Assembly (NCBI GenBank): GCA_002011075.2 | Contig: MTMA02000006.1 | Location: 831,261 to 855,260, forward strand | Direction: 5' to 3' | Origin: Candidatus Scotarchaeum otlingeri | GTDB taxonomy: Archaea > Thermoproteota > Nitrososphaeria > Geothermarchaeales > JDFR-13 | DNA length: 24,000 bases | Shown here: positions 753-24,000 of the stretch, piece after piece | Numbering within the stretch: position 1 is the stretch's first letter | How the letters are laid out: each line of letters begins with the position of its first letter | Made by a program: the position numbers and the translations under genes | The notes under the pieces: model-generated | Databases searched by the model: none | Told to the model about the DNA's origin: nothing | What the model saw: the letters and a program-made list of their open reading frames with translations, nothing else

Positions 753-777
753 AATTATTTATATCTGGGTCTAAGAA

Positions 778-2343: not shown

Positions 2344-2347
2344 ATAT

Positions 2348-2530
2348 ATGAAGCGGAATAAGATGTTTAAAAAACCTATAATCATTTCGGTGGGAGCCTC
2401 ATATTTCTATCAAGCTCTACGTTTACAGACCGATATGGTAGTTCATGTTGAGTGGCGTCCACCCGCTGGTGGAGATAGGGAGGTTATTGATATCTTAAGA
2501 AAACTTAAGGAAAAATTGAATAAAAAATAA
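2348..2530 (+). CDS. Small protein (60 aa) equivalent to the detached C-terminal tail of FdrA
   Basis: KPIIISVGASYFYQALRLQTDMVVHVEWRPPAGGDREVIDILRKLKEKL resembles the last ~45 aa of E. coli FdrA as I recall them (..INIGLRSFALELQ....VVHYQWSPVAGGNKKLARLLERLQ). ATG 2348 is preceded by GGAGGTGA (2336-2343). It lies in the +1 frame relative to fdrA. The track start at 2318 is less likely because it has no SD. Confidence 0.5.
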   Translation: MKRNKMFKKPIIISVGASYFYQALRLQTDMVVHVEWRPPAGGDREVIDILRKLKEKLNKK

Positions 2531-2593
2531 AGATAATATATTTCCAAAAGTTAATAGTCGATACAGAATAATGAATATATTTGGTGTATAAAG

Positions 2594-3358: not shown

Positions 3359-3364
3359 GCGGCT

Positions 3365-4615
3365 GTGTCAACTATCGATGTCGAGGGTGCTAATCAGGAA
3401 GCATTCGGGAGGATAATAAATGGTGAACCATGGGTAATAGATATAGACATTGCTCGTAGAGTCATACCGGGATTAAAGAATAAGATGCTACTTCATGCAG
3501 GCCCTCCCATACAATGGAATAGGATGGCTGGACCAATGAAAGGGGCAGCGATAGGCGCACTGATTTTCGAGGGATGGGCTGATGATGAGGCGGATGCATT
3601 AAAACTTCTTGAGGAAGGTGAAATTGATTTCTCACCCAATCATGATCATGACGCTGTGGGACCGATGGCAGGCATTACAGCACCATCGATGCCTGTTTTC
3701 ATAATCGAAAATCAGAGGTATGGTAATAGGACTTTCTGTACACTAAATGAAGGACTGGGAAAAGTTCTACGTTATGGAGCATATTCCAATGAAGTAATAG
3801 ATCGTCTCAACTGGATGAAGCAAGTTCTAGCGCCAGCATTGAAGGAGGCTATTAAATTGTCGGGTGGTATAAATCTTAAGGAGATAATTTCTAGGGCGCT
3901 TCACATGGGTGACGAATGTCATAACCGAAATTTCGCAGGGACAAGCCTATTCCTTAATGAGATTACACCATATCTTCTTGATCTAGATCTTTCCAGTAAA
4001 GAATTATCATCTATAATAAATTTCATAAAAAATAATGGACATTTCTTTCTAAATCTATCGATGCCAGCGATTAAATCAATGTTAGACCCTGCTCATAACA
4101 TTAAGAATTCAACTATAGTAACGGTAATGTCACGAAACGGCGTTGATTTCGGAATTAGAGTCTCTGGATTAGGGGATGAATGGTTTACCGATGCCGCTCC
4201 TATACCTAAAGGCCTATATTTCCCGGGATATAGCGAAGCAGATGCTAATCCAGATATCGGTGATAGCTCTATAACAGAGACAGGTGGCATAGGGGGATTT
4301 GCAATGGCGTCCGCCCCAGCTATAGTCCAATTTGTAGGTGGTACAGCTCAAGATGCAGTGAACTATACTAAGGAGATGTACAATATAACATGGGGAAAGC
4401 ATAAAGCATTTACAATACCATACCTAAATTTCGTGGGTACTCCAACGGGAATAGATATAATTAAGGTCGTTGAAACTGGAATAACTCCCGTTATAAACAC
4501 AGGAATAGCTCATAAGGAACCGGGCGTAGGTCAAGTGGGTGCAGGCATATTAAGAGCCCCGATATCAGTATTCAACAAAGCTCTAAGAAGGTTTGCCGAG
4601 AAGATAGGGATCTGA
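3365..4615 (+). CDS. ylbE: DUF1116 protein, YlbE/AllG homologue
   Basis: 416-aa ORF with a GTG start 6 nt after the previous stop. There are long collinear matches to E. coli YlbE as recalled: LLHAGPPIQW..MAGPMKGA, FEGWA, AVGPMAGIT, GNRTFCTLNEGLGKVLRYGAY, FGIRVSGLGDEWFT, ANPDIGDSSITETGGIGG and VVETGITPVINTGIAHKEPGVGQVGAG. Confidence 0.88.
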   Translation: MSTIDVEGANQEAFGRIINGEPWVIDIDIARRVIPGLKNKMLLHAGPPIQWNRMAGPMKGAAIGALIFEGWADDEADALKLLEEGEIDFSPNHDHDAVGPMAGITAPSMPVFIIENQRYGNRTFCTLNEGLGKVLRYGAYSNEVIDRLNWMKQVLAPALKEAIKLSGGINLKEIISRALHMGDECHNRNFAGTSLFLNEITPYLLDLDLSSKELSSIINFIKNNGHFFLNLSMPAIKSMLDPAHNIKNSTIVTVMSRNGVDFGIRVSGLGDEWFTDAAPIPKGLYFPGYSEADANPDIGDSSITETGGIGGFAMASAPAIVQFVGGTAQDAVNYTKEMYNITWGKHKAFTIPYLNFVGTPTGIDIIKVVETGITPVINTGIAHKEPGVGQVGAGILRAPISVFNKALRRFAEKIGI

Positions 4616-4634
4616 AATAGCCATTATACTAATC

Positions 4635-5453
4635 TCATATATTTACCTCAGTTGCTACATATATGCCTAAAACCAGATGCTCTCCGCTGCCTGACCCTCT
4701 ATTCAGAATATTCGTTAAATCAATAATTGATTCAGACCTATTGTCTATTAGATTATTGTATAGGCGCTCAAAATCTTCATCCACATGTCCATTTACAGCT
4801 TCCCACAGCATCCACCGGCTAATCATATCCAATCTATCAGATAACGTGTTATATGTAGCCACTGCATATGAAGCTATCTCATCATATAGACCGGATTTTT
4901 TATATAGCCAGTTCAAGAGTGAGAAATACCCAGATATAATATCGATGGCATAAGGTGTTGATCCTAAGCCCCATGTAGCCAAGCTAGGATTTATATCTTC
5001 CATTCTTATTAATCTATCAATCAGTATGCCATATTTATCTCTTATCTCTCTATTTATCGCCATCGTCCCATCAAAATTATGATAAGGAATTCTATGTCTG
5101 TAGAACATTATTAGTGTCCTTATTCTTCTCTTTAGTGCGCTGACATCTTCCTTTTTTGGATATCGGAGATGTGGTCTCCACACTATGTTAGGCAAATATA
5201 TTACGTAGTTATCTAATGTTATTGAATTATCCTCCAGCTCTAATCTTTCTATAGAGCTAAACTCAATGGGATAATCAAGGTTTATAATTCTAATTCCCCT
5301 AGGTCTCATGGATGATAAGATGGTGAATAGAAAGTCCCCGCTATACAGATGGATTGAATGCTTAGTAGAGCCATATATGCTTATCTCATCGAGTCTCTTA
5401 ATATTACTATATAATAAATACCCTATTGACCTTGCACTTAATTCTATACTCAT
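4635..5453 (-). CDS. Probable DUF2877 protein (YlbF/AllH-like)
   Basis: 272 aa, against 271 aa for E. coli YlbF. GLGSTPYAIDIISG resembles the YlbF GLTPSHDDTLSG motif. RGSGSGEHLVLG resembles LGHTSGADTLLG. The N-terminal pattern STKHSIHLYSGDFLFTIL resembles RRAINLMTESGELLTL. Synteny with fdrA and ylbE supports the call. The motif recall is approximate. Confidence 0.6.
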   Translation of the reverse strand: MSIELSARSIGYLLYSNIKRLDEISIYGSTKHSIHLYSGDFLFTILSSMRPRGIRIINLDYPIEFSSIERLELEDNSITLDNYVIYLPNIVWRPHLRYPKKEDVSALKRRIRTLIMFYRHRIPYHNFDGTMAINREIRDKYGILIDRLIRMEDINPSLATWGLGSTPYAIDIISGYFSLLNWLYKKSGLYDEIASYAVATYNTLSDRLDMISRWMLWEAVNGHVDEDFERLYNNLIDNRSESIIDLTNILNRGSGSGEHLVLGIYVATEVNI

Positions 5454-5480
5454 AGCTTCAACAAATTATATTCCTTAAGG

Positions 5481-5489
5481 ATTTATATA
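5481..5489 (-). promoter_or_regulatory. Candidate TATA box (TATATAAAT on the minus strand) for the DUF2877-like gene
   Basis: It lies at -36 to -28 relative to ATG 5453 on the minus strand. This spacing fits a short-leader or leaderless archaeal transcript. Confidence 0.35.
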
Positions 5490-5507
5490 CTCAATTTATC
5501 GGGGCTA

Positions 5508-5525
5508 TTGTAATATTTGTAATAT
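5508..5525. repeat. Perfect tandem direct repeat TTGTAATAT x2 in the divergent intergenic region
   Basis: Read directly: 5508-5516 and 5517-5525 are identical 9-mers. They sit between the divergent DUF2877-like gene and pgk. Function is unknown. Confidence 0.5.
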
Positions 5526-5573
5526 ATAAGAATAATAAATTATTTAGCTTCATATAATTATGATGATTGGGCC

Positions 5574-6803
5574 ATGATAGACTATTATACGATAACTAAA
5601 CCTTATTGGCTGATAAATCCAGCCAGTCAGGTTAAGGGACCTTCATTGTTGAGGGTCGACATAAATGTTCCCGTAATTAATGGAAGAATAGTGGAAGATA
5701 ACCTAAGGCTAAAGGTATACAGTGAAATAATATCATTATTAGCCGAGCATTCTGGTGTGGTAGTTGTTTCTCACCAAGGAAGAAAGGGTACAGAGTCATT
5801 TATATCACTTAGGCAACATTGGATCGTGCTAAGAAAGGCTTTACCTTCAGATATAGATATAGACTTCGTTCCTTACCATGAATTATTTTCCAGAGATACG
5901 AGGGAGAGGATAAGAAATCTAGGGTCGAGAGAAGTCCTATTGATAGATAATATTAGAATGATGAGAGAAGAAAAAAACTTTAATGCTACTGATTCTCAGT
6001 TCATAAGGTTCTTTAGGGGGATAATCGGAACATGCATAAATGACGCGATGCCTGTATGGCACAGAGCCCATACTAGTGTAATGGCCCTTCCATATATAGC
6101 ACCTACATTGATAGGCATGCGAGCCATATTCGAATTAAAAACGTTAAGAGAAGCTCTGGAGAGTAAGAAGAGTGAAGCTGGCATTGTTATGGGAGGAGCG
6201 AAGCTAGCAAAAACAAACTACTTAGTCAAGATACTTGAAAAGATGGATGGGTTTACAGGTGGTTTACCAGGGCAGCTTATAGCTAGACTTAAGGGTTATG
6301 ACCTCGGCGAAAAAAATAATCGTTTTATTGAGAATAGATTCTCTCCAGACATGATAGATGCAGCCAGAGTATTAATAAAAAAGTTCAATATTCATCATCC
6401 CATGGATTTTATAGTCAGAGAAAACGATGAAAATAGAGAGGTTAAACTCGAGGATCTAAAAGGGACTAAAGGCTATATAATGGATGTAGGCCCTGAGACG
6501 GTAGAGAAATATGCAGAGGCTTTACAAACCAAATCTACAAGAATAAGAGCAGGACCATTAGGCGTATATGAAAAAGGATATACTAATGGTATTGAACTTA
6601 CAAAGAGGATAATTGGTGTGGGCCTTATATTCCTCGGCGGTGACACGGCTGAAGAGGTTGTCATGTATGGATTGGATAAGGCTATATATAGCTCAGGTGG
6701 TTTAATCTGTCTAAGTGGAGGAGCTTTCCTACATGGATTGGCGGGTAAGAGGTATCCATCAATAGATATATTAATAGAGAAGGAAATGTCTAAGAATTAT
6801 TAA
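5574..6803 (+). CDS. pgk: Phosphoglycerate kinase (archaeal type)
   Basis: 409 aa. Motifs present: LLRVDINVPV (R-x-D-x-N-x-P), SHQGRKG (H-x-G-R-P), LLIDNIRM (E-N-x-R-F), WHRAHTS (AHRAHAS), MGGAKLAKT (GGAKVxDK), AGPLGVYE (GPxGxFE), LGGDTA (GGGDT) and LSGGAFLHGLAGKRYP (STGGGAxLExLxGKxLP). Confidence 0.72.
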   Translation: MIDYYTITKPYWLINPASQVKGPSLLRVDINVPVINGRIVEDNLRLKVYSEIISLLAEHSGVVVVSHQGRKGTESFISLRQHWIVLRKALPSDIDIDFVPYHELFSRDTRERIRNLGSREVLLIDNIRMMREEKNFNATDSQFIRFFRGIIGTCINDAMPVWHRAHTSVMALPYIAPTLIGMRAIFELKTLREALESKKSEAGIVMGGAKLAKTNYLVKILEKMDGFTGGLPGQLIARLKGYDLGEKNNRFIENRFSPDMIDAARVLIKKFNIHHPMDFIVRENDENREVKLEDLKGTKGYIMDVGPETVEKYAEALQTKSTRIRAGPLGVYEKGYTNGIELTKRIIGVGLIFLGGDTAEEVVMYGLDKAIYSSGGLICLSGGAFLHGLAGKRYPSIDILIEKEMSKNY

Positions 6804-15026: not shown

Positions 15027-16964
15027 TTACTCATATAGTTCTTCTATAAAATCGAAGATCGCATTTGCCAAGCCTTCTTTGTCTCCTACATACTCTCTAT
15101 ATCCGCCCTCTCTAGATATAAGTATAGCGCTATGTATCTCATGCGAAATCTTTGCTAGGTCATTAGCGACTACCATCTCAATACCGAGACTATCTAGCTC
15201 CTCCCGTGCTTTTTTAACCAGCGCCTCCTTATCCACATTGTACTCTAGTTTGAATCCAACGATAAATAGATCATTAAATTGTCTCCGTATCTCAGCTATT
15301 ACTTTAGGGGCGGGTGTAAGATCGATAGACCATTCTCGTCCCGACCTAAATTTATAATCCAAGAACTTTCTTGGTTTATAGTCCAGAATGGCTGCAGCGA
15401 ATATAGCGATATCATGTTTTTCTTTGGATAATTCTTTTTCTGCATTTCTTAACATGTCTTCAGTTGTAATTGCATCCACTACATCAGTGTGCCTCGGCAT
15501 AGATACTTTTCCAGGACCGTAGATAACCGTTACCTTACATCCTCTTTGAAATGCTTCTCGGGCTAACCAATATCCCAGCCGCCCTGTTGACCTATTGGAT
15601 ATATATCTTATTGGATCGATAGGATATTGGGTCGGCCCTGCTAATATAAGTACTTTTCTATCGGACAATCTACTAGCCTTGACAGCTCTAATAATATAGT
15701 CTATAGCTTCATCTGGCTTTGCTATTTTAGCAGCTCCCTCTTCATATATGGGTTCTATGAAATTTACGCCTAGCTCCTTAAGTCTAGATACACTGTTTCT
15801 AAAGATTGGATTATTATATAGCTTTAGATTCATTGCAGGTGCAATTATTAGCCTATTTGGCGCTGTGGCGGCACATAATGTTGTTACAGCGTTATCAGCG
15901 ACGCCATTTGCAATCTTGTTTATAGTATTCAATGTTGCTGGATAGATAATTACGGCATCATATTGGGAGATATGCTCTGCCTTTCCGCTCAATTCGATTA
16001 CTACCTCTTCATCTGATGCCCACTCCATAACTTTAGGGCTGACTCCATAATCCACAGCATATTTAGTCATAAATACTTTTACTTCACCGCCATATCTCCT
16101 AATTAATCTAGCTAATTTAGGGGCTTCTATAGTAGCCACACTTCCAGTGAGACATAGACCGATCTTCTTGCCGAGAAGCTTATTTGACTTTATTCTTAGC
16201 TCATTCTCACCTTCAATAATGTGGCTATAATCTATATAGCTTGTTTTACATGGACTTCCAGATGCATATAATAACCTTGGTTTCTCTCCATAAGCGATTA
16301 TTGTAGATGAGGATGTAACCCAATCTTCACCATGCATACATATGGAGTATCTCGTATATCCATGTTGATGATCCCTAGCGATATTAATGAGCCAATCGAT
16401 GATTCCACCTATTTTTTCAGGGGGGTTCTTAGTAAGCTCCTGAGCTCGCTTAAACCTGGTCATACAAGCCTTATAAGCCGTCTCATCATAGTTCTTGGGT
16501 CTATATCCCTCTGTCGACATGATATTAGTGAATATATGTATACCCCCAGGAAGATCTCTCCTATAGATTTCATTATCATATAATATGTGTACTAGACGGG
16601 AACTATCGCATAAAACGAAATTACCCTTCTTATAGATACCCCTTGAAAGCTCTTTTTCAAGATGATCTAATGCCTGATCCACTGAATCGTAGTTAAGTAA
16701 TATATCCAGCATTAGTTTCCCTCTACTCCTTTTACTCACCCACCATTCACCAGTGTGCTGATCCACAACCATAGCCATCAAACCCTTTTCATTAAAGCCT
16801 ATCCATGTTCCCCCTGAAGCAAGATCAATCGGCATATAGGCTGTATATCTACCGGAATACCGGCTAGGAGGGTATTCGATAGTCCCGATAGGAGCATATC
16901 TATTATCAAGGACTATATAGGGATACTCTTTATTCCATTGATATAATATAATACCGAGGCACAT
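15027..16964 (-). CDS. coaBC: Triple-domain fusion: N-terminal TANGO2/NRDE-family domain (aa 1-~250) + phosphopantothenoylcysteine decarboxylase CoaC (aa ~264-430) + phosphopantothenate-cysteine ligase CoaB (aa ~436-645)
   Basis: Single uninterrupted 645-codon ORF. The N-terminal domain has an MC start, LDNRY (vs NRDE), GGTWIGFNEKGLMAMVVD, KRSRGKLMLDIL and SICMHGEDWVTSSSTIIAYG, which parallel human TANGO2 GGTWLGISTRGKLAALTN, ARGRGELVTHFL and CVRCPGYGTRTNTIILVD. CoaC: KIGLCLTGSVATIEAPKL, YPATLNTINKIANGVADN and APAMNLKLY. CoaB: VLILAGPTQYPIDPIRYISNRSTGRLG, AAAILDYKP and VGFKLE. Confidence 0.85.
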   Translation of the reverse strand: MCLGIILYQWNKEYPYIVLDNRYAPIGTIEYPPSRYSGRYTAYMPIDLASGGTWIGFNEKGLMAMVVDQHTGEWWVSKRSRGKLMLDILLNYDSVDQALDHLEKELSRGIYKKGNFVLCDSSRLVHILYDNEIYRRDLPGGIHIFTNIMSTEGYRPKNYDETAYKACMTRFKRAQELTKNPPEKIGGIIDWLINIARDHQHGYTRYSICMHGEDWVTSSSTIIAYGEKPRLLYASGSPCKTSYIDYSHIIEGENELRIKSNKLLGKKIGLCLTGSVATIEAPKLARLIRRYGGEVKVFMTKYAVDYGVSPKVMEWASDEEVVIELSGKAEHISQYDAVIIYPATLNTINKIANGVADNAVTTLCAATAPNRLIIAPAMNLKLYNNPIFRNSVSRLKELGVNFIEPIYEEGAAKIAKPDEAIDYIIRAVKASRLSDRKVLILAGPTQYPIDPIRYISNRSTGRLGYWLAREAFQRGCKVTVIYGPGKVSMPRHTDVVDAITTEDMLRNAEKELSKEKHDIAIFAAAILDYKPRKFLDYKFRSGREWSIDLTPAPKVIAEIRRQFNDLFIVGFKLEYNVDKEALVKKAREELDSLGIEMVVANDLAKISHEIHSAILISREGGYREYVGDKEGLANAIFDFIEELYE

Positions 16965-17133
16965 ACCATAATAGAAGAGGACTACTATAATATTTCTATC
17001 TATATCATAGAAAAGATAATCTTATACATCTAGATATGAATCTGACTGTATTTGAATAAATCCCGTAGGAAGTATATATATAGAATACAGTGTTTCATCA
17101 CTAATAGGATGAAGTAGATAAAAATTGGCTAGG

Positions 17134-18678: not shown

Positions 18679-19455
18679 TCATAGATAATATATGTCTCTC
18701 CTTCTCTCATCTAATAAAGGCAGCAGTTTCCTCATTTCCACAATCTCAGATAGATCAATTTCCACAGCTAACAGTTTTTCCCCTTCACCCGCTTCGATTA
18801 ATATGTTGCCTTTAGGAGAGGCAACTAAAGAGTTACCGCAAAAATGGTATTTATCTGTTCCGACACGATTACATGCAACCATATACACCTGATTTTCTAT
18901 AGCCCGTGCAAGAATCAGAGACCGCCAATGATGTATCCTCTTACACGGCCATTCTGCACATATAAATATTATCTCTGCTCCTTTTAGGGCTAGGGTTCTA
19001 GCGAACTCTGGGAACCTTAGATCGTAACATATCATCATACCTATTTTATAGCCATTTACATTATAGACTTCTACTGAATTCCCAGCCTCAAAAATCTTAT
19101 GTTCGCCCATTAGTTTAATCAGATGTGTTTTATGATAAAATCCAATTAAGCCGTCTGGACCTATTAGATGCATAGAATTATATAGTTTATCTCCCTCCTT
19201 GAGGGGTACTGAACCCATTATATAAATATTGTTCTCTTTTGCTTTTAGAGTAAGTTGAGTGAATAATTCACTATCTCTATTCTCTGCTAAGTCATAGATA
19301 TTATCGGCATATGCTGTCGTCCATAGTTCAGGTAGAAGAATAAATTCAGCTCCCTGAGAAGCCAATTTATCGATAGAGTTAAATGCCTTCCTAATATTAG
19401 TATCCTTATCCCCTATGGAGATATCTAGCTGGGCTATACCTACATGTACCTTCAT
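18679..19455 (-). CDS. Carbon-nitrogen hydrolase (nitrilase superfamily; omega-amidase/MtnU/YafV-like)
   Basis: 258 aa. The Glu-Lys-Cys triad is in LPELWTT, YHKTHL and MMICYDLRFPE. CAEWP...HW..L..ARAIENQ is typical of the Nit/omega-amidase branch. It resembles B. subtilis MtnU as I recall it. The start overlaps the upstream stop (ATGA). Confidence 0.85.
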   Translation of the reverse strand: MKVHVGIAQLDISIGDKDTNIRKAFNSIDKLASQGAEFILLPELWTTAYADNIYDLAENRDSELFTQLTLKAKENNIYIMGSVPLKEGDKLYNSMHLIGPDGLIGFYHKTHLIKLMGEHKIFEAGNSVEVYNVNGYKIGMMICYDLRFPEFARTLALKGAEIIFICAEWPCKRIHHWRSLILARAIENQVYMVACNRVGTDKYHFCGNSLVASPKGNILIEAGEGEKLLAVEIDLSEIVEMRKLLPLLDERRRDIYYL

Positions 19456-20117
19456 AGGAAATTCACCATATATCTATGTGTAATCTTCCTATTGAGAATC
19501 GGGTCCTCCATCTCTATTATAAATTCCCTAGTGTAACATAGATCTCGCTTCAATGGAATCGTCCCGGAGAAGAGAGCTACACCCTTTCTATTCAAATCAA
19601 ATATTTCAAGGAGCCTTTCAGGGTGAATAATCATCTCGAGGAATCCCTCTTGATATAGCTCTAGCCTATTGTTCATAACTACATAGGAACGTATAATCAG
19701 TTTATCCCAATGCTCTCTCAATTCGTTATATCGCCATACAGTCGGCGCAATTATTTTAGGACATAGCTGTTTTGAGCGTTGAATATCGCTTTTCTCGAGC
19801 CATCTATCTGTATGGTCGCTACCGACAGTTACGTATATATCGTCACCTATTAAAAGGACATACTCAACTTCACCCGATGTCTTATCGCCAATTACTTCGA
19901 TTTTATCCCCTGTAGTCAGGAGATAGGGTGATACCCTCATAATTATAGGGGTGGATTTAGGGGCTGGTACACCTAATTTCTGGAGCTCTAATATATGCAT
20001 CCGAACTAATTCTCGGTTCCTACCTGTATAGCCAGCTAAATATAACTCTTCAATATCAACTAGCTCATCCACTAATTCTCCATCTGCTTCTACTATTTCG
20101 ACCTTGATTTTAACCAT
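19452..20117 (-). CDS. Conserved protein of unknown function, DUF2848-like
   Basis: 221 aa. AGYTGRN..V..HI.EL..LGVP.P, TSGEVEYVLL, VGSDHTDR, SKQLCPK and HWD fit my memory of the DUF2848 consensus. No catalytic assignment is possible from sequence alone. Confidence 0.4.
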   Translation of the reverse strand: MVKIKVEIVEADGELVDELVDIEELYLAGYTGRNRELVRMHILELQKLGVPAPKSTPIIMRVSPYLLTTGDKIEVIGDKTSGEVEYVLLIGDDIYVTVGSDHTDRWLEKSDIQRSKQLCPKIIAPTVWRYNELREHWDKLIIRSYVVMNNRLELYQEGFLEMIIHPERLLEIFDLNRKGVALFSGTIPLKRDLCYTREFIIEMEDPILNRKITHRYMVNFL

Positions 20118-20142
20118 TATGTATCCTCATCAACAATTAAGG

Positions 20143-21465
20143 TTAGTCTAGCATTGTAGCAAGCGGACCTTTCTTCCACGCCTCTATAGCAGCCTTAAGT
20201 TCAGGATGATCTTCTGCGTATTCTTCTAGTGGTATTTTTTTCATAGTGGCTTCGATAGCTTGTCTAAAGGATTTGGCTCCGGCTCTTGGACCCATGGGAT
20301 GTGCATGTATAGCTCCGCCAACACCGATCGCTACATGTATCCCGAAATCCTTGACTAATTTAGGCACCATCAATTGCGTTATGCCTCCAGCCGGCATCGG
20401 TAAAGTCGGTAGAATATGTTGCATTGGAAATAATAGCGTCCTTCCTACCTTCAGATACTTATCTTTGATATAGAATGGCTGCTTGCCATAAGGAGCAGGA
20501 TATACCATGATATCGGCTCCAGCCAACCTCGGTAGTTTACCCATAATAATCTCTGATGATACTCCTGTCTCTGGGTCCTCATATATTGCCCCCGCGAAGT
20601 CCATATGTGCAAGTATAGGTACATTGATACTGGGATCCTCGGCCAGCCCCTTAAGTGTTCCTATACCAGCAGTCAAATAATTAACCATCAATGCATTAGC
20701 ACCTAGCTCTATCACCCTATCAGCCAATTCAAATATCCTCGGTGGGTCCGCAGTAATGTTTATCGTATACATCTTCTTCTCCCCTGTCTCCTCCTCCGCT
20801 TTATCCACGACCTCCATATACTTGACGATTCTGTCTTCAACTTTATTGAACGGGGCATCGGCAAGAAGCTCATCGTCTTTCACAAAATCGACTCCTCCCA
20901 CCAAGGCTTCATAAGCCAGTCGTGCGCCGATATCAGGCGGGAAACCCGTGCAGGGCTTAATCATATTGTTTAGGATTGGTCTGTCCGTTACCTTAAGGTT
21001 ATATCTTATCCCAGGAACACCGAACTTAGGTCCCTTAAATAATTTTATGAATGACTTTGGGAAAGAAACATCTATTAACTTGACTCTCCCTGCAAGAGAG
21101 ATATTACCTACTATTGTAGATAACATCATGGAAATTTCATTCATAAAATTCTCGTATGGAAAAGCGATGGAGATGAGATATCGCCTTAAATTAATCTCCT
21201 CAGGAACCTCATACTCATAGTCTGGCACTTCATTTATCCTAATTACTTTAGCCACGTGACGTCTCCTCAACTCAGGGGTCTCCCCGGGAACCTTTGTCCA
21301 TGTACCTGTAGATTGCTCTATAGCAATCAACATAGATACCTTGTCAACCTCCCAATTCCTAGGCAAAGCGGTATAATATGTAGCTATAATATATCGTTCA
21401 GGGTCGATACCTTCTGGAAGCGCTATGGGAAGCGATTCGACATCGACATCATCCATATTATGCAC
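20143..21465 (-). CDS. RuBisCO large-subunit-like protein, form IV (RLP), not a carboxylase
   Basis: 440 aa. The RuBisCO fold motifs STGTW, VGN, FVKDDE, GGxxxHAHP and GxRAGAxxxRQA are present. KPKxG is KPCTG, HRAMH is HMDFA, HVGT is MVYP and SGG is AGG. The overall pattern is close to YkrW/MtnW-type RLPs (GLAEDPSINVPILAH, GADIMVYPAPYG). The track start is GTG 21465. ATG 21456, preceded by GGGGTG, is an equally good start. Confidence 0.88.
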   Translation of the reverse strand: MHNMDDVDVESLPIALPEGIDPERYIIATYYTALPRNWEVDKVSMLIAIEQSTGTWTKVPGETPELRRRHVAKVIRINEVPDYEYEVPEEINLRRYLISIAFPYENFMNEISMMLSTIVGNISLAGRVKLIDVSFPKSFIKLFKGPKFGVPGIRYNLKVTDRPILNNMIKPCTGFPPDIGARLAYEALVGGVDFVKDDELLADAPFNKVEDRIVKYMEVVDKAEEETGEKKMYTINITADPPRIFELADRVIELGANALMVNYLTAGIGTLKGLAEDPSINVPILAHMDFAGAIYEDPETGVSSEIIMGKLPRLAGADIMVYPAPYGKQPFYIKDKYLKVGRTLLFPMQHILPTLPMPAGGITQLMVPKLVKDFGIHVAIGVGGAIHAHPMGPRAGAKSFRQAIEATMKKIPLEEYAEDHPELKAAIEAWKKGPLATMLD

Positions 21466-21519
21466 CCCAATATCATAGTTAATATACGATAATAAATTCT
21501 GTCATAATACTGAGTTACG

Positions 21520-23028
21520 CTAGCCATTTAACGCTGCATATGCATCAGCGAGATAATCATGCATCTCTTTATAGACTTCATATAATTCTCCATATACCTC
21601 CTCATACTCCTCATTGGGATGATAATGATATTGATACCTTATATTCTGCACAGCTTCTGCCAACGAATGATACTTACCGGCTCCAACCATAGCCATCAGT
21701 GCAGCTCCTTCTGCTACAGATTCTACAATGTCTCTCACAACCCTTATCTCCTTCTGTAACACATCAGTTATAACCTCTGAAACTGTTCTTGACCTAAGAA
21801 ATCCTCCTGAAGCAGGGAAATAATCATGGGATACACCTGTATTCTCCTCCACCAGCTCACTGATCCATCTCAGGTTGAAACCGATACCTTCAACAAGTGC
21901 CCTAGCCACATCACTAATTTTATGGTCTAGACTTAGATTGAAGAAGCATCCCCTTGCATATATATCTGGTATGGGCGCTCTCTCGCCGTACATCCATGGA
22001 AGAAATATAACCTTATTTGCTCCAGGAGAACTTGCCTTAATCAAACCATCCATATAACTATATGGATCCCGTTCCTTAGAGATACCCGATATAAAGGTAT
22101 CGATAAACCATTTATACGCCGCGCCTGCGCTCTCCATCTCGCCTATAAATATCCATAAATTGGGTTCCGTGAATAATATTGTACCCATACCATGTTCAGC
22201 ATCTAGCATCCGCTCTTCAACTATAGTGGATATCCATGCTGAGGAACCTATATATAGATGAGTATCTCCAGGTGAAACAGCGCCTGTACCTATTGATGCA
22301 GCTATAACATCCCCAGATCCGTTGACGACTATAGTATCCTCATCTAGACCCAGTTCATTAGCAGCATCACTGGACAAATGACCTACTACATCTAATGCAC
22401 CCTTGAATTCAGGATATTTCTCTATATCCAAATTGAATATCTCAGCTATTCTATCGGAATATTTGAGATTATTCATATCAAAAGTTCCCCTTACAGATGC
22501 ACATGCATAATCTGTGACCACTTCACCCGTCATTTTATAGATTATGTAGTCTTTAACATCCATTATGTACTCTGCATCATCATATATATCAGGCTTATTA
22601 TTCTTAAGCCATAGAATTTTGGGTAAAGCATCTTTTCCACCTGGTACTCCACCTACATGGTCAAGAAGCTCGTCGACACCAAATTCTCCTAGTATCTCAT
22701 CGGCCTCTTCTTCCGCTCGGTTATCAAGCCAAATGATACATCTAGTTAAAGGACTTCCCTCTTTAGAGAGAGGAAGAACCCCTATCATCTGGGCACTTAT
22801 ACTGAGAGCTTCAACTTTGATGCCGGTTTTATCAGCCTTTGTTATCAATTTATTTATGACGTCTTTAATTCCAAGCCACCAATCATCTGGATCTTGCTCA
22901 GCCCACCCCTTTTCCGGATAGAATGTTCTCAATGAACTTGATGCAGTAGATATCAATTCTAGGTTTTCATCGACAAGGACCCCTTTTATCGCACCGGTAC
23001 CAAGATCTAAACCAATATAATAACTCAT
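21520..23028 (-). CDS. FGGY-family carbohydrate kinase (xylulokinase/ribulokinase-like; substrate unknown)
   Basis: 502 aa. N-terminal YIGLDLGTGAIKGVLVD. Also has GSGDVIAASIGTGAV...IGSSAWIS and a C-terminal ASGGFLRSRTVSEVITDVLQKEI. Its ATG lies 8 nt after the upstream stop. Confidence 0.85.
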   Translation of the reverse strand: MSYYIGLDLGTGAIKGVLVDENLELISTASSSLRTFYPEKGWAEQDPDDWWLGIKDVINKLITKADKTGIKVEALSISAQMIGVLPLSKEGSPLTRCIIWLDNRAEEEADEILGEFGVDELLDHVGGVPGGKDALPKILWLKNNKPDIYDDAEYIMDVKDYIIYKMTGEVVTDYACASVRGTFDMNNLKYSDRIAEIFNLDIEKYPEFKGALDVVGHLSSDAANELGLDEDTIVVNGSGDVIAASIGTGAVSPGDTHLYIGSSAWISTIVEERMLDAEHGMGTILFTEPNLWIFIGEMESAGAAYKWFIDTFISGISKERDPYSYMDGLIKASSPGANKVIFLPWMYGERAPIPDIYARGCFFNLSLDHKISDVARALVEGIGFNLRWISELVEENTGVSHDYFPASGGFLRSRTVSEVITDVLQKEIRVVRDIVESVAEGAALMAMVGAGKYHSLAEAVQNIRYQYHYHPNEEYEEVYGELYEVYKEMHDYLADAYAALNG

Positions 23029-23036
23029 AATCCCAT

Positions 23037-24000
23037 CTACCTCCTCCTATATTCATACTCATATTCGATACTTACTTCAATAATAGATTCCTCCAAAATA
23101 TGCAGAGCCCTATCTATCTCCTCATAACTTATCGTTAAGGGAGGTTTGAACTTGATAGTATTCATAAAAGAAAACTCATCCCCATATACATCAGGCATAT
23201 CAAGAGCAAATATCGCACCTTTCTCCAGGGCTCTATCTACAATTTCAGAAGCCAATTCAGGAGAAGGCGTCTTATCATCCTTATCCTCAACTATATCGAT
23301 ACCAATAAATAGGCCGGGACCTCTTACATCCCCAATTATCTCAGATCTCTCCATTATCTCTCTAAGTCTTCTAGTTGCATATAATCCCTTATCCCTAGCC
23401 TCTTTAATTAGATCAAGCTTCTCAATAACCATTATATTTACTAATGCTGCCGCATAAATTACTGGGTTACCCCCGAAAGTAGTATGTTCCTCTGGATATG
23501 TTAAGCCCTTAATATCTTCTCTAGCCAGAGTTGCGCCGATTGGATAACCGCCTCCTAATCCCTTTGTGAATGTCATCATATCAGGTGTAACGTTATATAG
23601 TTCGGCGGCACACCATGCACCTACCCTTCCGAATGCGGTTTGTGACTCATCGAATATAAGATAGATATCGTATTTGTCTGTCAATTCTCTCAGAGCTTTT
23701 AGATATTCTATGGGTGCAGGTATATGTCCACCGGGTCCCTGTATGGGTTCAATAATTAGCCCTGCGTATTTTCCCCAGCCGCCCCTCTTTATCGTATTCT
23801 CTAACACATCAATACATCTAAGGCTACATTCAGGGTAGGAGAGACCAAAGGGACATCTATAACAATATGGATAGGGGAATCTAACGAATCTGTCAATACC
23901 GAATGGTTTATACCTTATTAATGTCGTCAATGGGTGACTTGCACTTGTAGTGGCTAAACTATTTCCATGATATCCTCTCCATGCCGTCAGAAATATCTCT
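23037..24000 (-). CDS. Class-III (omega) PLP aminotransferase (GabT/ArgD-like); the N-terminus lies beyond the window end
   Basis: The reading frame stays open upstream of the track's TTG. My translation of 23931-23999 gives ..EIFLTAWRGYHGNSLATTSASHP, the GYHG region of class-III enzymes. It also has IIEPIQGPGG, FDESQTAFGRVG and the PLP-lysine motif TFTKGLGGGYP. Confidence 0.85.
   Translation of the reverse strand, partial: EIFLTAWRGYHGNSLATTSASHPLTTLIRYKPFGIDRFVRFPYPYCYRCPFGLSYPECSLRCIDVLENTIKRGGWGKYAGLIIEPIQGPGGHIPAPIEYLKALRELTDKYDIYLIFDESQTAFGRVGAWCAAELYNVTPDMMTFTKGLGGGYPIGATLAREDIKGLTYPEEHTTFGGNPVIYAAALVNIMVIEKLDLIKEARDKGLYATRRLREIMERSEIIGDVRGPGLFIGIDIVEDKDDKTPSPELASEIVDRALEKGAIFALDMPDVYGDEFSFMNTIKFKPPLTISYEEIDRALHILEESIIEVSIEYEYEYRRR

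What the first reader, a model, noticed from the sequence alone, without database searches (positions are those of the whole stretch)
15027..16964. TANGO2/NRDE-family domain fused in-frame to the CoA-biosynthesis enzyme CoaBC
CoaBC (Dfp) proteins are normally ~400 aa, but this ORF is 645 aa. The extra N-terminal ~250 aa (nt ~16215-16964) start with Met-Cys and carry, in order, LDNRY, GGTWIGFNEKGLMAMVVD, KRSRGKLMLDIL, GNFVLCD, GIHIFTNIMST and SICMHGEDWVTSSSTIIAYG. These parallel the human TANGO2 blocks ANRDEF, GGTWLGISTRGKLAALTN, ARGRGELVTHFL, NGFNLIAAD, GTYGLSNALLET and CVRCPGYGTRTNTIILVD. The rest of the ORF is an ordinary CoaC plus CoaB. The TANGO2 family's molecular function is unresolved. 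From memory, human and fly work links it to CoA/acyl-CoA handling and to rescue by pantothenate. A covalent fusion to the enzyme that makes 4'-phosphopantetheine is a Rosetta-stone style argument that the family acts on a CoA-pathway metabolite. After Met removal the Cys2 would be an N-terminal nucleophile, as in Ntn-type hydrolases. The eponymous NRDE motif is degenerate here: N-R is kept and D-E is replaced by Y-A.
Basis: partly seen in the sequence, partly recalled or inferred. Interest (0 to 1): 0.85.

Follow-up and report, generated by a model that had tools for sequence, protein, structure and literature searches.

The report
TANGO2-like domain fused to CoaBC
An archaeal enzyme that builds the core of coenzyme A carries, as a conserved extra front end, a relative of the human disease protein TANGO2, which is an independent genomic clue that this poorly understood protein family works on coenzyme-A-type molecules.

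Summary
Window 15027..16964 (-) is one 645-aa ORF. It has an N-terminal TANGO2/NRDE-family domain (Pfam PF05742, 45.6 bits against a cut-off of 22.6). The AlphaFold model of that domain (pLDDT 91.7) matches human TANGO2 crystal structures (Foldseek E about 5e-11). A flexible linker of about 15 aa joins it to a complete CoaC+CoaB (TIGR00521, 298.9 bits).

It is not an artefact. About 42 protein clusters, 42-53% identical, from archaeal metagenome-assembled genomes share the architecture. Most source records are labelled Bathyarchaeia, with some 'Thermoprotei' and a few 'Micrarchaeota'. Three relatives carry the two parts as overlapping adjacent genes. Met-Cys at the N-terminus is invariant. The fused clade replaces NRDE with NRY(A/E), so the aspartate proposed to assist catalysis is a tyrosine.

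I found no paper mentioning this fusion. The function is inferred, not shown. I favour a Cys-N-terminal-nucleophile hydrolase acting on a pantetheine-type metabolite that feeds CoaB (a salvage loop, about 0.35). The rivals are a CoA/acyl-CoA sensor domain (0.3) and a thioesterase (0.2).

A side finding also links the family to CoA thioesters. Canonical NRDE genes sit directly after menA-menC-menE in about half of the inspectable related contigs (GC about 67%, probably haloarchaeal), where the DHNA-CoA thioesterase step is an acknowledged gap.

The parts
15027..16964 (-). Whole gene: 645-aa three-domain protein (TANGO2-like + CoaC + CoaB), stop codon at 15027-15029
   Evidence: ORF list. Pfam and NCBIfam domains. 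The identical 645-aa protein P0352 is on record on a 1.68-Mb contig, and the same gene call appears in JGI metagenome 3300002532.
16215..16964 (-). N-terminal TANGO2/NRDE-family domain (aa 1-250), alpha-beta-beta-alpha fold of the N-terminal-nucleophile (Ntn) hydrolases
   Evidence: PF05742 at 45.6 bits. AlphaFold model pLDDT 91.7, pTM 0.91. Foldseek hits to 3gvz, 8sv7, 9bwa, 2x1d and bile-salt hydrolases. Exhaustive HMMER gave 907 relatives, nearly all standalone proteins of about 250 aa.
16959..16964 (-). Start codon plus Cys2 codon (ATG TGC). Cys2 becomes the N-terminal residue after Met removal.
   Evidence: C2 is invariant in 34 complete fusions. 28 of 43 gene models start exactly at MC, and 6 longer calls keep Met or Val directly before the Cys. 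That Met is removed before Cys is established knowledge of methionine aminopeptidase specificity, not tested here.
16893..16904 (-). N21-R22-Y23-A24, the counterpart of the eponymous NRDE motif (human N25-R26-D27-E28)
   Evidence: Alignment A4. R22 and Y23 are invariant in 34 fusions, and position 24 is A (27), E (4) or other (3).
16719..16724 (-). R81-G82, the counterpart of human R88-G89 (sulfate/diphosphate-binding Arg; G89C is a disease variant)
   Evidence: invariant. Roles in the human protein are from PMC13044924 and PMC12359130.
16332..16340 (-). C209-M210-H211 ('C-x-H'). Together with D198-H199 and C239 this forms an invariant Cys/His set, possibly a metal site.
   Evidence: Invariant. 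Only C209 is shared with human TANGO2. A metal site is my inference and was not tested.
16170..16214 (-). Inter-domain linker (aa 251-265), containing the conserved K-S-x-K-L-x-G segment
   Evidence: Alignment through the junction. pLDDT falls to 64 around residues 250-260 and the full-length pTM is 0.62. The segment from S247 to T273 is 25-39 aa in 34 fusions.
15714..16169 (-). CoaC domain (phosphopantothenoylcysteine decarboxylase flavoprotein), aa 266-417
   Evidence: PF02441 at 80.9 bits. Aligns with M. smegmatis CoaBC 6tgv, including the EH(I/V) histidine and the PAMN motif.
15030..15665 (-). CoaB domain (phosphopantothenate-cysteine ligase), aa 434-645
   Evidence: PF04127 at 155.5 bits. 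Aligns with the CoaB structures 5int, 1u7u and 4qji, including the GPTxxxIDPIRYISNRSTG and AAAILDYKP motifs.
16988..16995 (-). TATA-like AAATATTA at -31 to -24 from the ATG, with no Shine-Dalgarno motif. This fits an archaeal promoter for a leaderless mRNA.
16833..16835 (-). Met44 codon, used as the start in an alternative public gene call (602 aa) that removes Cys2 and the NRY motif
   Evidence: P0270 and P0353 are 602 aa and begin MPIDLASGG. This start is judged wrong because residues 1-43 are conserved across the family.

Best explanation
SHOWN: this is one real gene for a three-module protein. The C-terminal two-thirds is a complete CoaBC, which ligates cysteine to 4'-phosphopantothenate and decarboxylates the product to 4'-phosphopantetheine. 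The N-terminal 250 aa is a divergent member (the 'NRY' subclade) of the TANGO2/NRDE family, with the fold of cysteine N-terminal-nucleophile (Ntn) hydrolases and an invariant Met-Cys start. The union is ancient and maintained by selection in a clade of archaea, either as one polypeptide or as two overlapping genes. INFERRED, my preferred mechanism: after Met removal, Cys2 is a free N-terminal nucleophile in a pocket that binds a pantetheine-type CoA-pathway metabolite. The phosphate would be held by the invariant R81 (human R88) and by clade-specific basic residues K/R112-113. The domain would cleave the pantothenoyl amide of 4'-phosphopantetheine or a damaged or modified derivative, releasing 4'-phosphopantothenate. 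That product is exactly the substrate of the tethered CoaB. CoaB and CoaC then install a fresh cysteamine end, making a cut-and-replace salvage or repair loop for the CoA and phosphopantetheine pool. Confidence that the fusion and the domain identities are right is about 0.97. Confidence in this particular mechanism is about 0.35.
For: Identity and reality. Recurrence: 42 clusters of 636-681 aa with PF05742+PF02441+PF04127; 11 intact in-frame fusions and 2 frameshifted ones among 44 species-representative genomes; three two-gene forms with overlaps of 11-26 nt. Selection: mean pairwise identity of the N-domain is 49%, against 55% for CoaB and 65% for CoaC. About 20 polar residues are invariant, including C2, R22, Y23, R81, Y111, D198, H199, C209, H211 and C239. 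The domain is always N-terminal and begins Met-Cys, with ribosome-binding or promoter signals just upstream, as a free alpha-amine nucleophile requires. Chemistry: the nearest solved folds are Cys-Ntn amidases and acyltransferases, including acyl-CoA:isopenicillin N acyltransferase and the bile-salt hydrolases. Bile-salt hydrolases release taurine, which by established chemistry is the fully oxidised analogue of cysteamine. Cooper et al. docked palmitoyl-CoA into human TANGO2 with the diphosphate on R32/K56/R88 and Cys2 constrained near the pantothenate-side amide carbonyl (PMC12359130). Human TANGO2 binds acyl-CoA through the NRDE pocket (PMC11867700). Vitamin B5 rescues TANGO2 deficiency (bioRxiv 10.1101/2022.11.04.514597), and a CoA-salvage defect has been suggested (PMC11179719). 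Pathway logic (established Rosetta-stone reasoning): fused enzymes usually catalyse adjacent steps, and only the amidase product is a CoaB substrate. Relative to NRDE proteins, the fused clade loses two acidic pocket residues (D to Y, E to A) and gains two basic ones (YNPFNL to YKKGNF), as expected for a more anionic, less lipophilic ligand (inference).
Against: No activity of any kind has been shown for any family member, and Lujan et al. report having ruled out acyltransferase activity for human TANGO2. The Asp that positions the alpha-amine in known Cys-Ntn hydrolases (human D27) is Tyr in every fused protein. The oxyanion Asn equivalent (N147) is replaced in 5 of 34. The counterpart of human R32 is lost. 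These changes fit a non-catalytic binder equally well. Hydrolysing 4'-phosphopantetheine next to the enzyme that makes it would be a futile cycle unless the substrate is a damaged or foreign derivative. Fused genes have no conserved CoA-pathway neighbours, and standalone NRY genes sit in unrelated contexts. The men-operon linkage of canonical NRDE genes points to thioester rather than amide chemistry. The monomer model gives no confident inter-domain contact (pTM 0.62).
Confidence: 0.35

Rival explanations
1. Regulatory sensor. The N-domain has lost hydrolytic competence and serves as a CoA/acyl-CoA (or 4'-phosphopantetheine) binding module that allosterically throttles the attached CoaB/CoaC. 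This would give these archaea end-product feedback at the CoaBC step.
For: Human TANGO2 is, so far, experimentally only a binder of acyl-CoA (PMC11867700). The catalytic-type Asp is replaced by Tyr in all fused proteins and the oxyanion Asn is not universal. Bacterial CoaBC is known to be allosterically inhibited (title and abstract of PMC7794376, listed), so regulation at this step has precedent. A flexible tether suits a regulatory appendage. Truly unfused close relatives exist (L138) and some fusions are decaying (L048), so CoaBC works without the domain.
Against: The Met-Cys N-terminus and about 20 polar residues are strictly invariant over lineages only 33-50% identical, which is more than a simple binding role usually requires. 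The two-gene forms would need a stable non-covalent complex for allostery. No regulatory effect has been measured.
Confidence: 0.3
2. Thioesterase or deacylase. The domain uses Cys2 to hydrolyse acyl thioesters of CoA or 4'-phosphopantetheine, freeing the thiol form of the cofactor. It is coupled to CoaBC as part of CoA-pool homeostasis rather than as a consecutive step.
For: Canonical NRDE genes lie directly after menA-menC-menE in 27 of 59 inspectable relatives, and the trio lies further upstream in 7-8 more. That pathway lacks an assigned DHNA-CoA thioesterase in haloarchaea. Cooper et al. hypothesise acyl-CoA hydrolysis for TANGO2. The fold is similar to acyl-CoA:isopenicillin N acyltransferase (TM 0.73). 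P0006 hits Pfam AAT, and the window domain and P0263 weakly hit NCBIfam C45_proenzyme. In one fused locus an acyl-CoA dehydrogenase gene overlaps the 3' end (L021).
Against: A thioesterase product is not a substrate of CoaB or CoaC, so the tight and ancient fusion has no obvious pathway logic. The men-linked proteins keep NRDE, whereas the fused clade has a remodelled pocket (NRYA, YKKGNF), which suggests a different ligand. Archaea make little fatty acyl-CoA (general knowledge).
Confidence: 0.2
3. Supplier of another CoaB input, or an unrelated activity that merely travels with coaBC. Examples are an amidase releasing L-cysteine from a conjugate, or an editing enzyme removing mis-ligated phosphopantothenoyl-amino acids.
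For: Cys-Ntn enzymes cleave many N-acyl-amino-acid-type amides (PMC13044924). CoaB needs free cysteine. The fusion alone cannot tell which CoaBC substrate or product is shared.
Against: There is no specific evidence. Family-level data point to CoA-type ligands, not to amino-acid conjugates.
Confidence: 0.1
4. Heme-binding or heme-trafficking domain, as proposed for the bacterial homologue HtpA and for HRG-9/TANGO2.
For: The Tyr implicated in heme binding (human Y116) is invariant here as Y111. Han et al. report heme binding by bacterial homologues (PMC10470608).
Against: The heme role is disputed (PMC12782551 and PMC10723261, listed; PMC13044924 reports non-specific heme contacts). Heme has no known connection with CoaBC. 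Y111 is equally explained as a pocket residue.
Confidence: 0.03
5. Artefact: an assembly chimera, a missed stop or frameshift, or a mis-called start that only simulates a fusion.
For: Some relatives do carry frameshifts in this gene (L046, L048). One public gene call starts at Met44.
Against: The same uninterrupted architecture occurs in about 42 clusters from independent samples and assemblers and in genomes of 38-62% GC. These align through a conserved linker. The window protein itself is recorded on 6 contigs, including one of 1.68 Mb.
Confidence: 0.01

Closest known systems
Human TANGO2 (PDB 8sv7, 9bwa; Pfam PF05742)
   Same: Same Pfam family and the same four-layer alpha-beta-beta-alpha fold (Foldseek E about 5e-11, TM 0.66-0.69). 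Met-Cys start. Conserved N-R, G-T-W, R-G (R88-G89), Y116-equivalent, N157-equivalent and one further Cys.
   Different: Only about 21% identical, and the pairwise HMMER E-value is 0.36. D27-E28 become Y-A, N75 becomes D68, and the R32 equivalent is lost. The prokaryotic Cys/His set (H199, H211, C239) is absent in the human protein. The archaeal domain is covalently joined to CoaBC, whereas the human protein is standalone and mitochondrial.
CV2077 of Chromobacterium violaceum (PDB 3gvz) and prokaryotic 'NRDE family proteins'
   Same: Best structural match (E 4e-13, TM 0.76). Same length and secondary-structure order. The same invariant prokaryotic motifs (DH, C-x-H, SS, G-x-P-C) in the NRDE family proteins.
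   Different: These are standalone proteins of about 250 aa with the canonical NRDE motif. Function is unknown, except for the disputed heme-trafficking claim for Shewanella HtpA.
Cys-Ntn hydrolases and acyltransferases: acyl-CoA:isopenicillin N acyltransferase (2x1d), bile-salt hydrolase, penicillin V acylase
   Same: Same fold, an N-terminal Cys, and an Arg next to the motif-1 position. The window protein keeps the Asn equivalent of the oxyanion residue.
   Different: The alpha-amine-positioning Asp is Tyr. The proteins are only about 11-16% identical. No autoproteolytic propeptide is needed, because the Cys directly follows the initiator Met. Activity is unproven.
Ordinary bifunctional CoaBC/Dfp (TIGR00521; e.g. 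M. smegmatis 6tgv, E. coli CoaB 1u7u)
   Same: The C-terminal 380 aa match end to end, with the FMN-domain His, PAMN, and the CTP and phosphopantothenate motifs.
   Different: An extra 250-aa N-terminal domain plus a linker. The region aligning to the 6tgv loop after 'EPAS' is about 6 residues shorter.
Vanin-type pantetheinase (from general knowledge; not examined here)
   Same: It catalyses the reaction type I propose: hydrolysis of the pantothenoyl-cysteamine amide using a Cys nucleophile, recycling pantothenate.
   Different: It has an unrelated fold (nitrilase superfamily), is an extracellular animal enzyme, and acts on non-phosphorylated pantetheine. It is an analogy of function only.

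Membership tests
TANGO2/NRDE family (Pfam PF05742) | Scores above the curated Pfam gathering threshold | tested here: met
   45.6 bits for aa 1-255 and 42.3 bits in the full protein, against a cut-off of 22.6. All relatives tested also pass. Only profile positions 1-164 of 257 are matched.
TANGO2/NRDE family (Pfam PF05742) | Fold of solved family members (alpha-beta-beta-alpha sandwich) | tested here: met
   AlphaFold model pLDDT 91.7. Foldseek: 3gvz E 4e-13, TM 0.76; 8sv7 and 9bwa E 3e-11 to 7.5e-11, TM 0.66-0.69.
TANGO2/NRDE family (Pfam PF05742) | Protein begins Met-Cys (Cys2) | tested here: met
   Invariant in 34 complete fusions and in all 26 sequences of alignment A4, including the human protein.
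TANGO2/NRDE family (Pfam PF05742) | Eponymous N-R-D-E motif | tested here: not met
   The window has N21-R22-Y23-A24, and Y23 is invariant in the whole fused clade. I therefore file it as a distinct 'NRY' subfamily of the PF05742 family, not as a canonical NRDE protein. In human TANGO2, changing NRDE to AGAA abolishes acyl-CoA binding.
TANGO2/NRDE family (Pfam PF05742) | Other family-wide motifs: G-T-W, (S/G)-R-G, the pocket Tyr, and the late invariant Cys | tested here: met
   G52-T53-W54, S80-R81-G82, Y111 and C209.
TANGO2/NRDE family (Pfam PF05742) | Binds acyl-CoA (the only biochemical property reported for the human protein) | not testable with these tools
   Requires purified protein. 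Reported for human TANGO2 in PMC11867700.
Cysteine N-terminal nucleophile (Ntn) hydrolases | N-terminal Cys exposed as a free alpha-amine nucleophile | tested here: inconclusive
   The sequence gives Met-Cys, and start-site signals support that start. Actual Met removal was not observed; it is inferred from known methionine aminopeptidase specificity.
Cysteine N-terminal nucleophile (Ntn) hydrolases | Asp that hydrogen-bonds the alpha-amine (bile-salt hydrolase D20/21, acid ceramidase D162, TANGO2 D27) | tested here: not met
   The aligned residue is Tyr23 (roles from PMC13044924). A clade-specific Asp68 replaces human Asn75 nearby in 31 of 34 fusions, but whether it compensates is unknown.
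Cysteine N-terminal nucleophile (Ntn) hydrolases | Oxyanion-hole Asn (TANGO2 N157 equivalent) | tested here: met
   N147 in the window. It is N in 29 of 34 fusions and S, T or P in 5.
Cysteine N-terminal nucleophile (Ntn) hydrolases | Amide or thioester hydrolytic activity | not testable with these tools
   Needs enzymology.
Bifunctional CoaBC (NCBIfam TIGR00521) | Equivalog model above its cut-off, covering both halves | tested here: met
   298.9 bits against 219.7, aa 265-640 on model positions 3-391 of 392.
Bifunctional CoaBC (NCBIfam TIGR00521) | CoaC flavoprotein domain with the active-site His and the PAMN motif | tested here: met
   PF02441 at 80.9 bits. 'AEHI' and 'APAMNLKLY' align with 6tgv and are invariant in the fusion family (H331, A377-M378, N379 nearly so).
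Bifunctional CoaBC (NCBIfam TIGR00521) | CoaB ligase domain with the nucleotide and substrate motifs | tested here: met
   PF04127 at 155.5 bits. 'GPTQYPIDPIRYISNRSTGRLG' and 'AAAILDYKP' align with 6tgv, 5int and 1u7u.
Bifunctional CoaBC (NCBIfam TIGR00521) | Catalytic activities (phosphopantothenate-cysteine ligase and phosphopantothenoylcysteine decarboxylase) | not testable with these tools
   Inferred from homology only.

The most novel reading that the evidence does not exclude
The TANGO2-like domain is a previously unrecognised intracellular phosphopantetheine (or CoA-fragment) amidase. It cuts off the cysteamine end, perhaps specifically when that end is oxidised or otherwise damaged, and hands 4'-phosphopantothenate to the tethered CoaBC for re-synthesis. 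This would be a cofactor repair and salvage loop. By homology, the ancestral job of the TANGO2 family, including the human disease protein, would be CoA or acyl-CoA salvage and hydrolysis. That would explain why pantothenate rescues TANGO2 deficiency. The same family would supply the missing DHNA-CoA hydrolase of haloarchaeal menaquinone synthesis.
Probability: 0.15. Interest if true: 0.95.

Novelty: new variant of a known kind. Interest (0 to 1): 0.72.

Why it matters
TANGO2 deficiency is a lethal human metabolic disease, and the protein's molecular function is still disputed: heme chaperone, acyl-CoA binder or cryptic hydrolase. The only therapeutic lead is empirical, namely that vitamin B5, the CoA precursor, rescues models and helps patients.

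A covalent fusion of a TANGO2-family domain to the enzyme that makes 4'-phosphopantetheine is evidence of a different kind from cell biology. The fusion has been maintained for a long evolutionary time in many archaeal lineages and also occurs as overlapping gene pairs. It ties the family to the CoA pathway by genome logic alone.

It also offers a tractable system in which a short list of pathway metabolites can be tested as substrates or ligands: a protein from what looks like a thermophilic archaeon, with the Cys directly after the initiator Met and the partner enzyme attached.

The men-operon linkage found in passing gives a second, independent test bed and a candidate for an acknowledged pathway gap (EC 3.1.2.28). 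If neither yields an activity, the fusion still defines a new CoaBC architecture that current annotation hides, since every source names these proteins simply 'CoaBC'.

Tried and rejected
- **Assembly or frameshift artefact:** rejected.
- **Alternative start at Met44** (the 602-aa public call): rejected because residues 1-43 are conserved family-wide and start signals precede Met1.
- **First indexed search with the N-domain:** gave only 2 hits.
- **Profile search with a mixed NRY/NRDE alignment:** swamped by canonical standalone NRDE proteins and listed no fusion. The full-length profile and the exhaustive HMMER run were what worked.
- **Conserved operon partners of the fused gene:** none beyond closely related genomes. 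The tight neighbours are an isochorismatase-family gene, an acyl-CoA dehydrogenase (once), peptidases, an oxidoreductase and a glycosyltransferase.
- **Neighbours of the standalone NRYL clade:** a CBS-domain protein, a 2-hydroxyacid dehydrogenase, an Amdase/racemase-family protein, an OCD/mu-crystallin protein and a radical SAM protein. These show no CoA link and probably reflect lineage synteny.
- **Cytidylyltransferase gene near a Thermoplasmata NRDE gene:** suspected to be the CoA enzyme PPAT, but it is NMNAT.
- **Full-length AlphaFold model:** intended to reveal inter-domain geometry, but pTM 0.62 and a low-confidence linker mean nothing can be said.
- **Source organism of the window:** not resolved. 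The genome scan's peptide patterns do not match the window's own sequence, and the cluster names carried no organism. Archaeal origin is inferred from the relatives, a geranylgeranyl reductase gene and the promoter architecture.
- **Asp relocation idea** (D27 to Y23 compensated by N75 to D68): not upheld as a general rule, because the standalone NRYL clade and the SRYE fusions have neither Asp.


Full report
**1. The observation**

Window 15027..16964 on the minus strand is a single 645-aa ORF. It begins at the first in-frame start codon after a stop, and that codon is followed directly by Cys (ATG TGC).

Pfam finds three domains in order: PF05742 (TANGO2) at the N-terminus, PF02441 (CoaC-type flavoprotein) at aa 266-417, and PF04127 (DFP/CoaB) at aa 434-606. 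PF05742 scores E=1.3e-11 and 45.6 bits for aa 1-255 alone, against a gathering cut-off of 22.6. The NCBIfam equivalog for bifunctional CoaBC (TIGR00521, 392 positions) scores 298.9 bits (cut-off 219.7) over aa 265-640, so roughly 260 residues are surplus to a normal CoaBC.

The CoaBC part aligns end to end with M. smegmatis CoaBC (6tgv) and with CoaB structures. It keeps the flavoprotein His, the PAMN motif and the CoaB nucleotide and substrate motifs. It looks like a working enzyme.

**2. Is the N-terminal domain really TANGO2-like?**

Pairwise similarity to human TANGO2 is weak: phmmer E=0.36, and a profile of the clade gives E=4e-4. Three other lines agree with the Pfam result.

- An exhaustive HMMER search of 1.84 billion representatives found 907 relatives. 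Nearly all are standalone proteins of about 250 aa, and an indexed search found relatives of this kind carrying PF05742 and the source name 'NRDE family protein'.
- An AlphaFold model built on 22 clade members is confident (pLDDT 91.7, pTM 0.91).
- Foldseek against the PDB returns, in order: the bacterial protein 3gvz (E 4e-13, TM 0.76); human TANGO2 8sv7 and 9bwa (E about 3-7e-11, TM 0.66-0.69); acyl-CoA:isopenicillin N acyltransferase (TM 0.73); and then many bile-salt hydrolases and penicillin V acylases, which are all cysteine N-terminal-nucleophile (Ntn) enzymes.

For the family alignment I used a human sequence recalled from memory. Its numbering agrees with every residue number given in PMC13044924 and with the PDB alignment. 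The alignment maps window residues to human residues as follows:

- C2 = C2
- N21-R22-Y23-A24 = N25-R26-D27-E28
- G52-T53-W54 = G59-T60-W61
- R81-G82 = R88-G89
- Y111 = Y116
- N147 = N157
- C209 = an invariant Cys

So the domain passes the family's profile and fold tests but lacks the D-E of the eponymous motif. I file it as a distinct 'NRY' subfamily.

**3. Is the fusion real?**

Yes. A full-length profile search returned about 42 clusters (at 90% identity) of 636-681 aa with precomputed PF05742+PF02441+PF04127. They are 42-53% identical to the window protein. The search also returned several fragments cut by contig ends.

The window's own protein is on record as a 645-aa product on six contigs, one of 1.68 Mb. 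A rival 602-aa gene call starts at Met44.

The fusions align straight through a short conserved linker (…IDYSH…KS-x-KL-x-G-K/R-x-I-x-L-C-x-TGSVA…).

In a scan of one genome per species, 44 genomes carry an NRY-type domain. Most records are labelled Bathyarchaeia or Bathyarchaeota. Others are Guaymas 'Thermoprotei' MAGs, Baldrarchaeota, a few labelled Micrarchaeota, and one labelled Nitrososphaerales. They divide as follows:

- 11 have the intact in-frame fusion.
- 2 have the same gene broken by frameshifts: L046 has two shifts with all motifs still readable, and L048 is decayed.
- 1 (L017) has two genes overlapping by 26 nt.
- About 30 are standalone.

Of the four closest 'unfused' CoaBC relatives inspected, three have an NRY-type gene immediately upstream that overlaps coaBC by 11-26 nt (L017, L136, L137). 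One (L138) is truly unfused and sits 1.7 kb upstream of an archaeal phosphopantothenate synthetase gene.

Fused loci range from 38% to 62% GC. An assembly artefact is excluded.

**4. Conservation and start site**

In 34 complete fusions, mean pairwise identity is 49% for the TANGO2-like domain, 65% for CoaC and 55% for CoaB. The extra domain is therefore under purifying selection comparable to CoaB. Invariant residues include M1, C2, R22, Y23, G52, W54, N58, Q69, S80-R81-G82, Y111, N115, D120, R170, R173, D198-H199, C209, H211, S219 and C239.

Of 43 gene models, 28 start exactly at Met-Cys. Six longer calls still have Met or Val directly before the Cys. Nine are obviously truncated calls.

In at least 10 of 14 other fused or split loci, a Shine-Dalgarno-like purine run lies 8-16 nt before the ATG/GTG/TTG-TGY. 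The window instead has a TATA-like AAATATTA at -31 to -24 and no Shine-Dalgarno motif, as expected for a leaderless archaeal mRNA (this interpretation is an inference). Everything points to translation starting at the Met that precedes Cys2, which a free N-terminal nucleophile requires.

**5. Phylogenetic pattern**

An unbootstrapped neighbour-joining tree of the N-domains separates the canonical NRDE proteins from an NRY clade. The NRY clade contains:

- a purely standalone 'NRYL' group in Bathyarchaeia;
- an 'NRYA/E' group that is mostly fused, with the split forms and a few standalone members (Baldrarchaeota, L016, P0001, P0004) nested inside it;
- two fused 'SRYE' proteins (P0308, P0311) that branch at the base of the NRY clade, outside both groups.

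The fusion therefore characterises one old subclade. It is not a property of the whole family, and it has been split or lost several times.

**6. Context**

The window gene stands alone. IMPDH lies 170 nt upstream on the same strand, and a convergent nucleoside-type ABC transporter lies downstream. Fused genes in other genomes share no neighbour beyond close relatives. The standalone NRYL genes sit in an unrelated, lineage-specific neighbourhood. So the physical union with coaBC is the only CoA linkage for this clade, but it is a strong one.

**7. What the literature adds**

- Human TANGO2 binds acyl-CoA. Replacing NRDE with AGAA abolishes binding, and the authors state they ruled out acyltransferase activity (PMC11867700).
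- Two crystal-structure papers describe the Ntn-hydrolase fold. Zhou et al. list Cys2, Asn25, Arg26, Asp27, Asn157 and Lys166 as the putative catalytic set, and a sulfate bound by Arg32/Lys56/Arg88 (PMC13044924).
- Cooper et al. docked palmitoyl-CoA with its diphosphate on those basic residues and Cys2 constrained next to the pantothenate-side amide carbonyl. They also discuss a thioesterase alternative (PMC12359130).
- Vitamin B5 rescues fly and cell models (bioRxiv 10.1101/2022.11.04.514597). A review speculates about a CoA-salvage defect (PMC11179719).
- Bacterial homologues have been proposed to traffic heme through the Tyr equivalent to Y111 (PMC10470608). The heme role is contested (papers listed).
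- Six full-text searches combining TANGO2, NRDE, DUF833 or PF05742 with CoaBC, phosphopantothenate, phosphopantetheine, fusion or archaea found no mention of this fusion. The architecture is visible in precomputed Pfam annotations, but every source names these proteins simply as CoaBC.

**8. How it most likely works**

*Shown:* a complete CoaBC tethered by a flexible linker to a conserved TANGO2-family Ntn-fold domain with an N-terminal Cys. In the full-length model the linker has pLDDT about 64 and pTM is 0.62, so no inter-domain geometry can be trusted.

*Inferred:* fused enzymes usually act on consecutive intermediates. Of the reactions a Cys-Ntn pocket that binds pantetheine-type ligands could plausibly perform, only cleavage of the pantothenoyl amide yields a CoaB substrate, namely 4'-phosphopantothenate. 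I therefore favour a cut-and-replace salvage or repair loop: the amidase produces 4'-phosphopantothenate, then CoaB and CoaC rebuild 4'-phosphopantetheine.

Two observations fit this idea. Bile-salt hydrolases, which share the fold, release taurine, the oxidised analogue of cysteamine. And the fused clade's pocket differs from NRDE proteins by losing two acidic residues and gaining two basic ones (D-E to Y-A; YNPFNL to YKKGNF), which fits a more anionic, less lipophilic ligand.

*Against:* the Asp that positions the alpha-amine in all characterised Cys-Ntn hydrolases is Tyr here. The oxyanion Asn is replaced in 5 of 34 fusions. The R32 equivalent is gone. No family member has a demonstrated activity. 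Hydrolysing the product of the attached enzyme would be futile unless the substrate is a damaged or foreign derivative.

My estimates are:

| Explanation | Probability |
|---|---|
| Salvage amidase | 0.35 |
| CoA/acyl-CoA-sensing regulatory domain | 0.30 |
| Thioesterase or deacylase | 0.20 |
| Other CoaB-related activity | 0.10 |
| Heme role | 0.03 |
| Artefact | 0.01 |

**9. A second genomic link found in passing**

I sampled the neighbourhoods of canonical NRDE genes. One of them (P0263, on a 67% GC contig) lies 73 nt downstream of three genes on the same strand: menA (389.7 bits, cut-off 264), a menC-like gene, and menE (333.6 bits, cut-off 330.15).

A metagenome scan found 80 relatives at 57-100% identity. 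Of the 59 with enough upstream sequence, 27 have menA-menC-menE immediately upstream. Seven or eight more have the trio about 0.6-1.5 kb upstream. The linkage persists down to 47-50% MenE identity.

Menaquinone synthesis passes through OSB-CoA and DHNA-CoA. Pfeiffer and Dyall-Smith list the DHNA-CoA hydrolase (MenI, EC 3.1.2.28) and MenH as unfilled gaps in haloarchaea and name no candidate (PMC8305020 main text and supplement). The NRDE protein is therefore a candidate MenI.

This is independent context evidence that the family handles CoA thioesters. It strengthens the general claim that the family acts on CoA-type ligands, while favouring thioester over amide chemistry for the canonical NRDE branch.

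A weaker pattern appears in four related contigs, two of whose proteins are labelled Myxococcota: patatin, then the TANGO2-like gene, then a 108-aa ORF in three of the four, then FolC.

**10. Novelty and verdict**

The parts are known families. The architecture is a new, unreported variant of CoaBC, and it is the first pathway-specific genomic anchor I could find for the TANGO2 family. It does not prove what TANGO2 does, and transfer to the human protein is uncertain: the two are about 21% identical and the pocket is remodelled. It does, however, turn an open question into a short list of testable substrates in a convenient protein. Interest 0.72; novelty class: new variant of a known kind.

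Noticed in passing
L053:337-4741; L056-L135 (metagenome relatives): Canonical NRDE/TANGO2-family genes lie directly downstream of menA-menC-menE on the same strand in 27 of 59 inspectable contigs (GC about 67%, probably haloarchaeal). The trio lies about 0.6-1.5 kb upstream in 7-8 more. The DHNA-CoA thioesterase step (EC 3.1.2.28) is a published open gap in haloarchaeal menaquinone synthesis, so this protein is a candidate for it.
   Followed up: partly
L050, L051, L052, L054 (around 2200-6650 in each): Four related contigs (two of the proteins are labelled Myxococcota) share the order patatin-like phospholipase, TANGO2-like gene, then a true FolC (TIGR01499, 323.7 bits). In three of them an unannotated 108-aa ORF overlaps the TANGO2-like gene by 4 nt. 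Like CoaB, FolC is a ligase that joins an amino acid to a vitamin-derived carboxylate by an amide bond, and folate also appears in the TANGO2 disease literature.
   Followed up: partly
P0328 (585 aa): Another N-terminal add-on to a related archaeal CoaBC: a class II aldolase/adducin domain (PF00596) followed by CoaC and CoaB, with the CoaBC part 46% identical to the window's.
   Followed up: no
P0065 (409 aa), P0140 (402 aa); TANGO2-family domain at the N-terminus fused to a C-terminal glycosyl-hydrolase-2 galactose-binding-like domain. In this different fusion the TANGO2 domain is again N-terminal and starts at residue 1.
   Followed up: no
window 16248-16373 (aa 198-239: D198-H199, C209, H211, C239): An invariant Asp-His … Cys-x-His … Cys set is shared by NRY and NRDE prokaryotic proteins, but only C209 is shared with human TANGO2. 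It looks like a possible metal-binding site.
   Followed up: no
window 16833-16835 (Met44): A public gene call (P0270 and P0353, 602 aa) starts this protein at Met44, deleting Cys2 and the NRY motif. Nine of the 43 fusion gene models are similarly truncated, so automated start calling hides the key N-terminal Cys in a fifth of cases.
   Followed up: yes
window 3-5453: A cluster of a partial amidohydrolase, an FdrA-like protein (CoA-ligase and CoA-binding domains), a putative cyclase, AllG and a divergently oriented AllH-like gene. This resembles an oxamate or purine-catabolism module in what appears to be an archaeon.
   Followed up: no
window 18679-23930 (-): A same-strand run of a nitrilase-family hydrolase, DUF2848, a RuBisCO large-subunit-family protein, an FGGY sugar kinase and a class-III aminotransferase. 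The pairing of a RuBisCO-family protein with DUF2848 and a kinase is unexplained.
   Followed up: no
L021:5938-7200 approx.: In one fused locus an acyl-CoA dehydrogenase gene overlaps the 3' end of the TANGO2-CoaBC gene by 19 nt on the same strand. This was seen only once.
   Followed up: no
L138:3001-6689: A close but truly unfused CoaBC relative (P0321) has no TANGO2-like gene upstream. An archaeal phosphopantothenate synthetase gene (PF02006) lies 1.7 kb downstream on the same strand.
   Followed up: no
L031 versus L032: L031 is titled 'Candidatus Krumholzibacteriaceae bacterium', but its NRYL gene groups in the tree with that of the Bathyarchaeota contig L032 and gives identical BLAST coordinates and identity (33.07%). 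This is probably a binning or labelling error rather than a bacterial occurrence.
   Followed up: no
window 15700-15760 (aa about 402-420): The CoaC segment aligning to the loop after 'EPAS' in M. smegmatis CoaBC (6tgv) is about 6 residues shorter here (EPIYEEGAAKIA). This feature is conserved across the fusion family (EEG-A-AK).
   Followed up: no
L019, L022-L045 (standalone NRYL clade): The standalone Bathyarchaeia NRYL genes keep a divergently transcribed protein with multiple CBS domains and a D-2-hydroxyacid dehydrogenase upstream. Downstream they have either an Amdase/racemase-family gene or an OCD/mu-crystallin or radical-SAM gene. No functional reading was found.
   Followed up: partly
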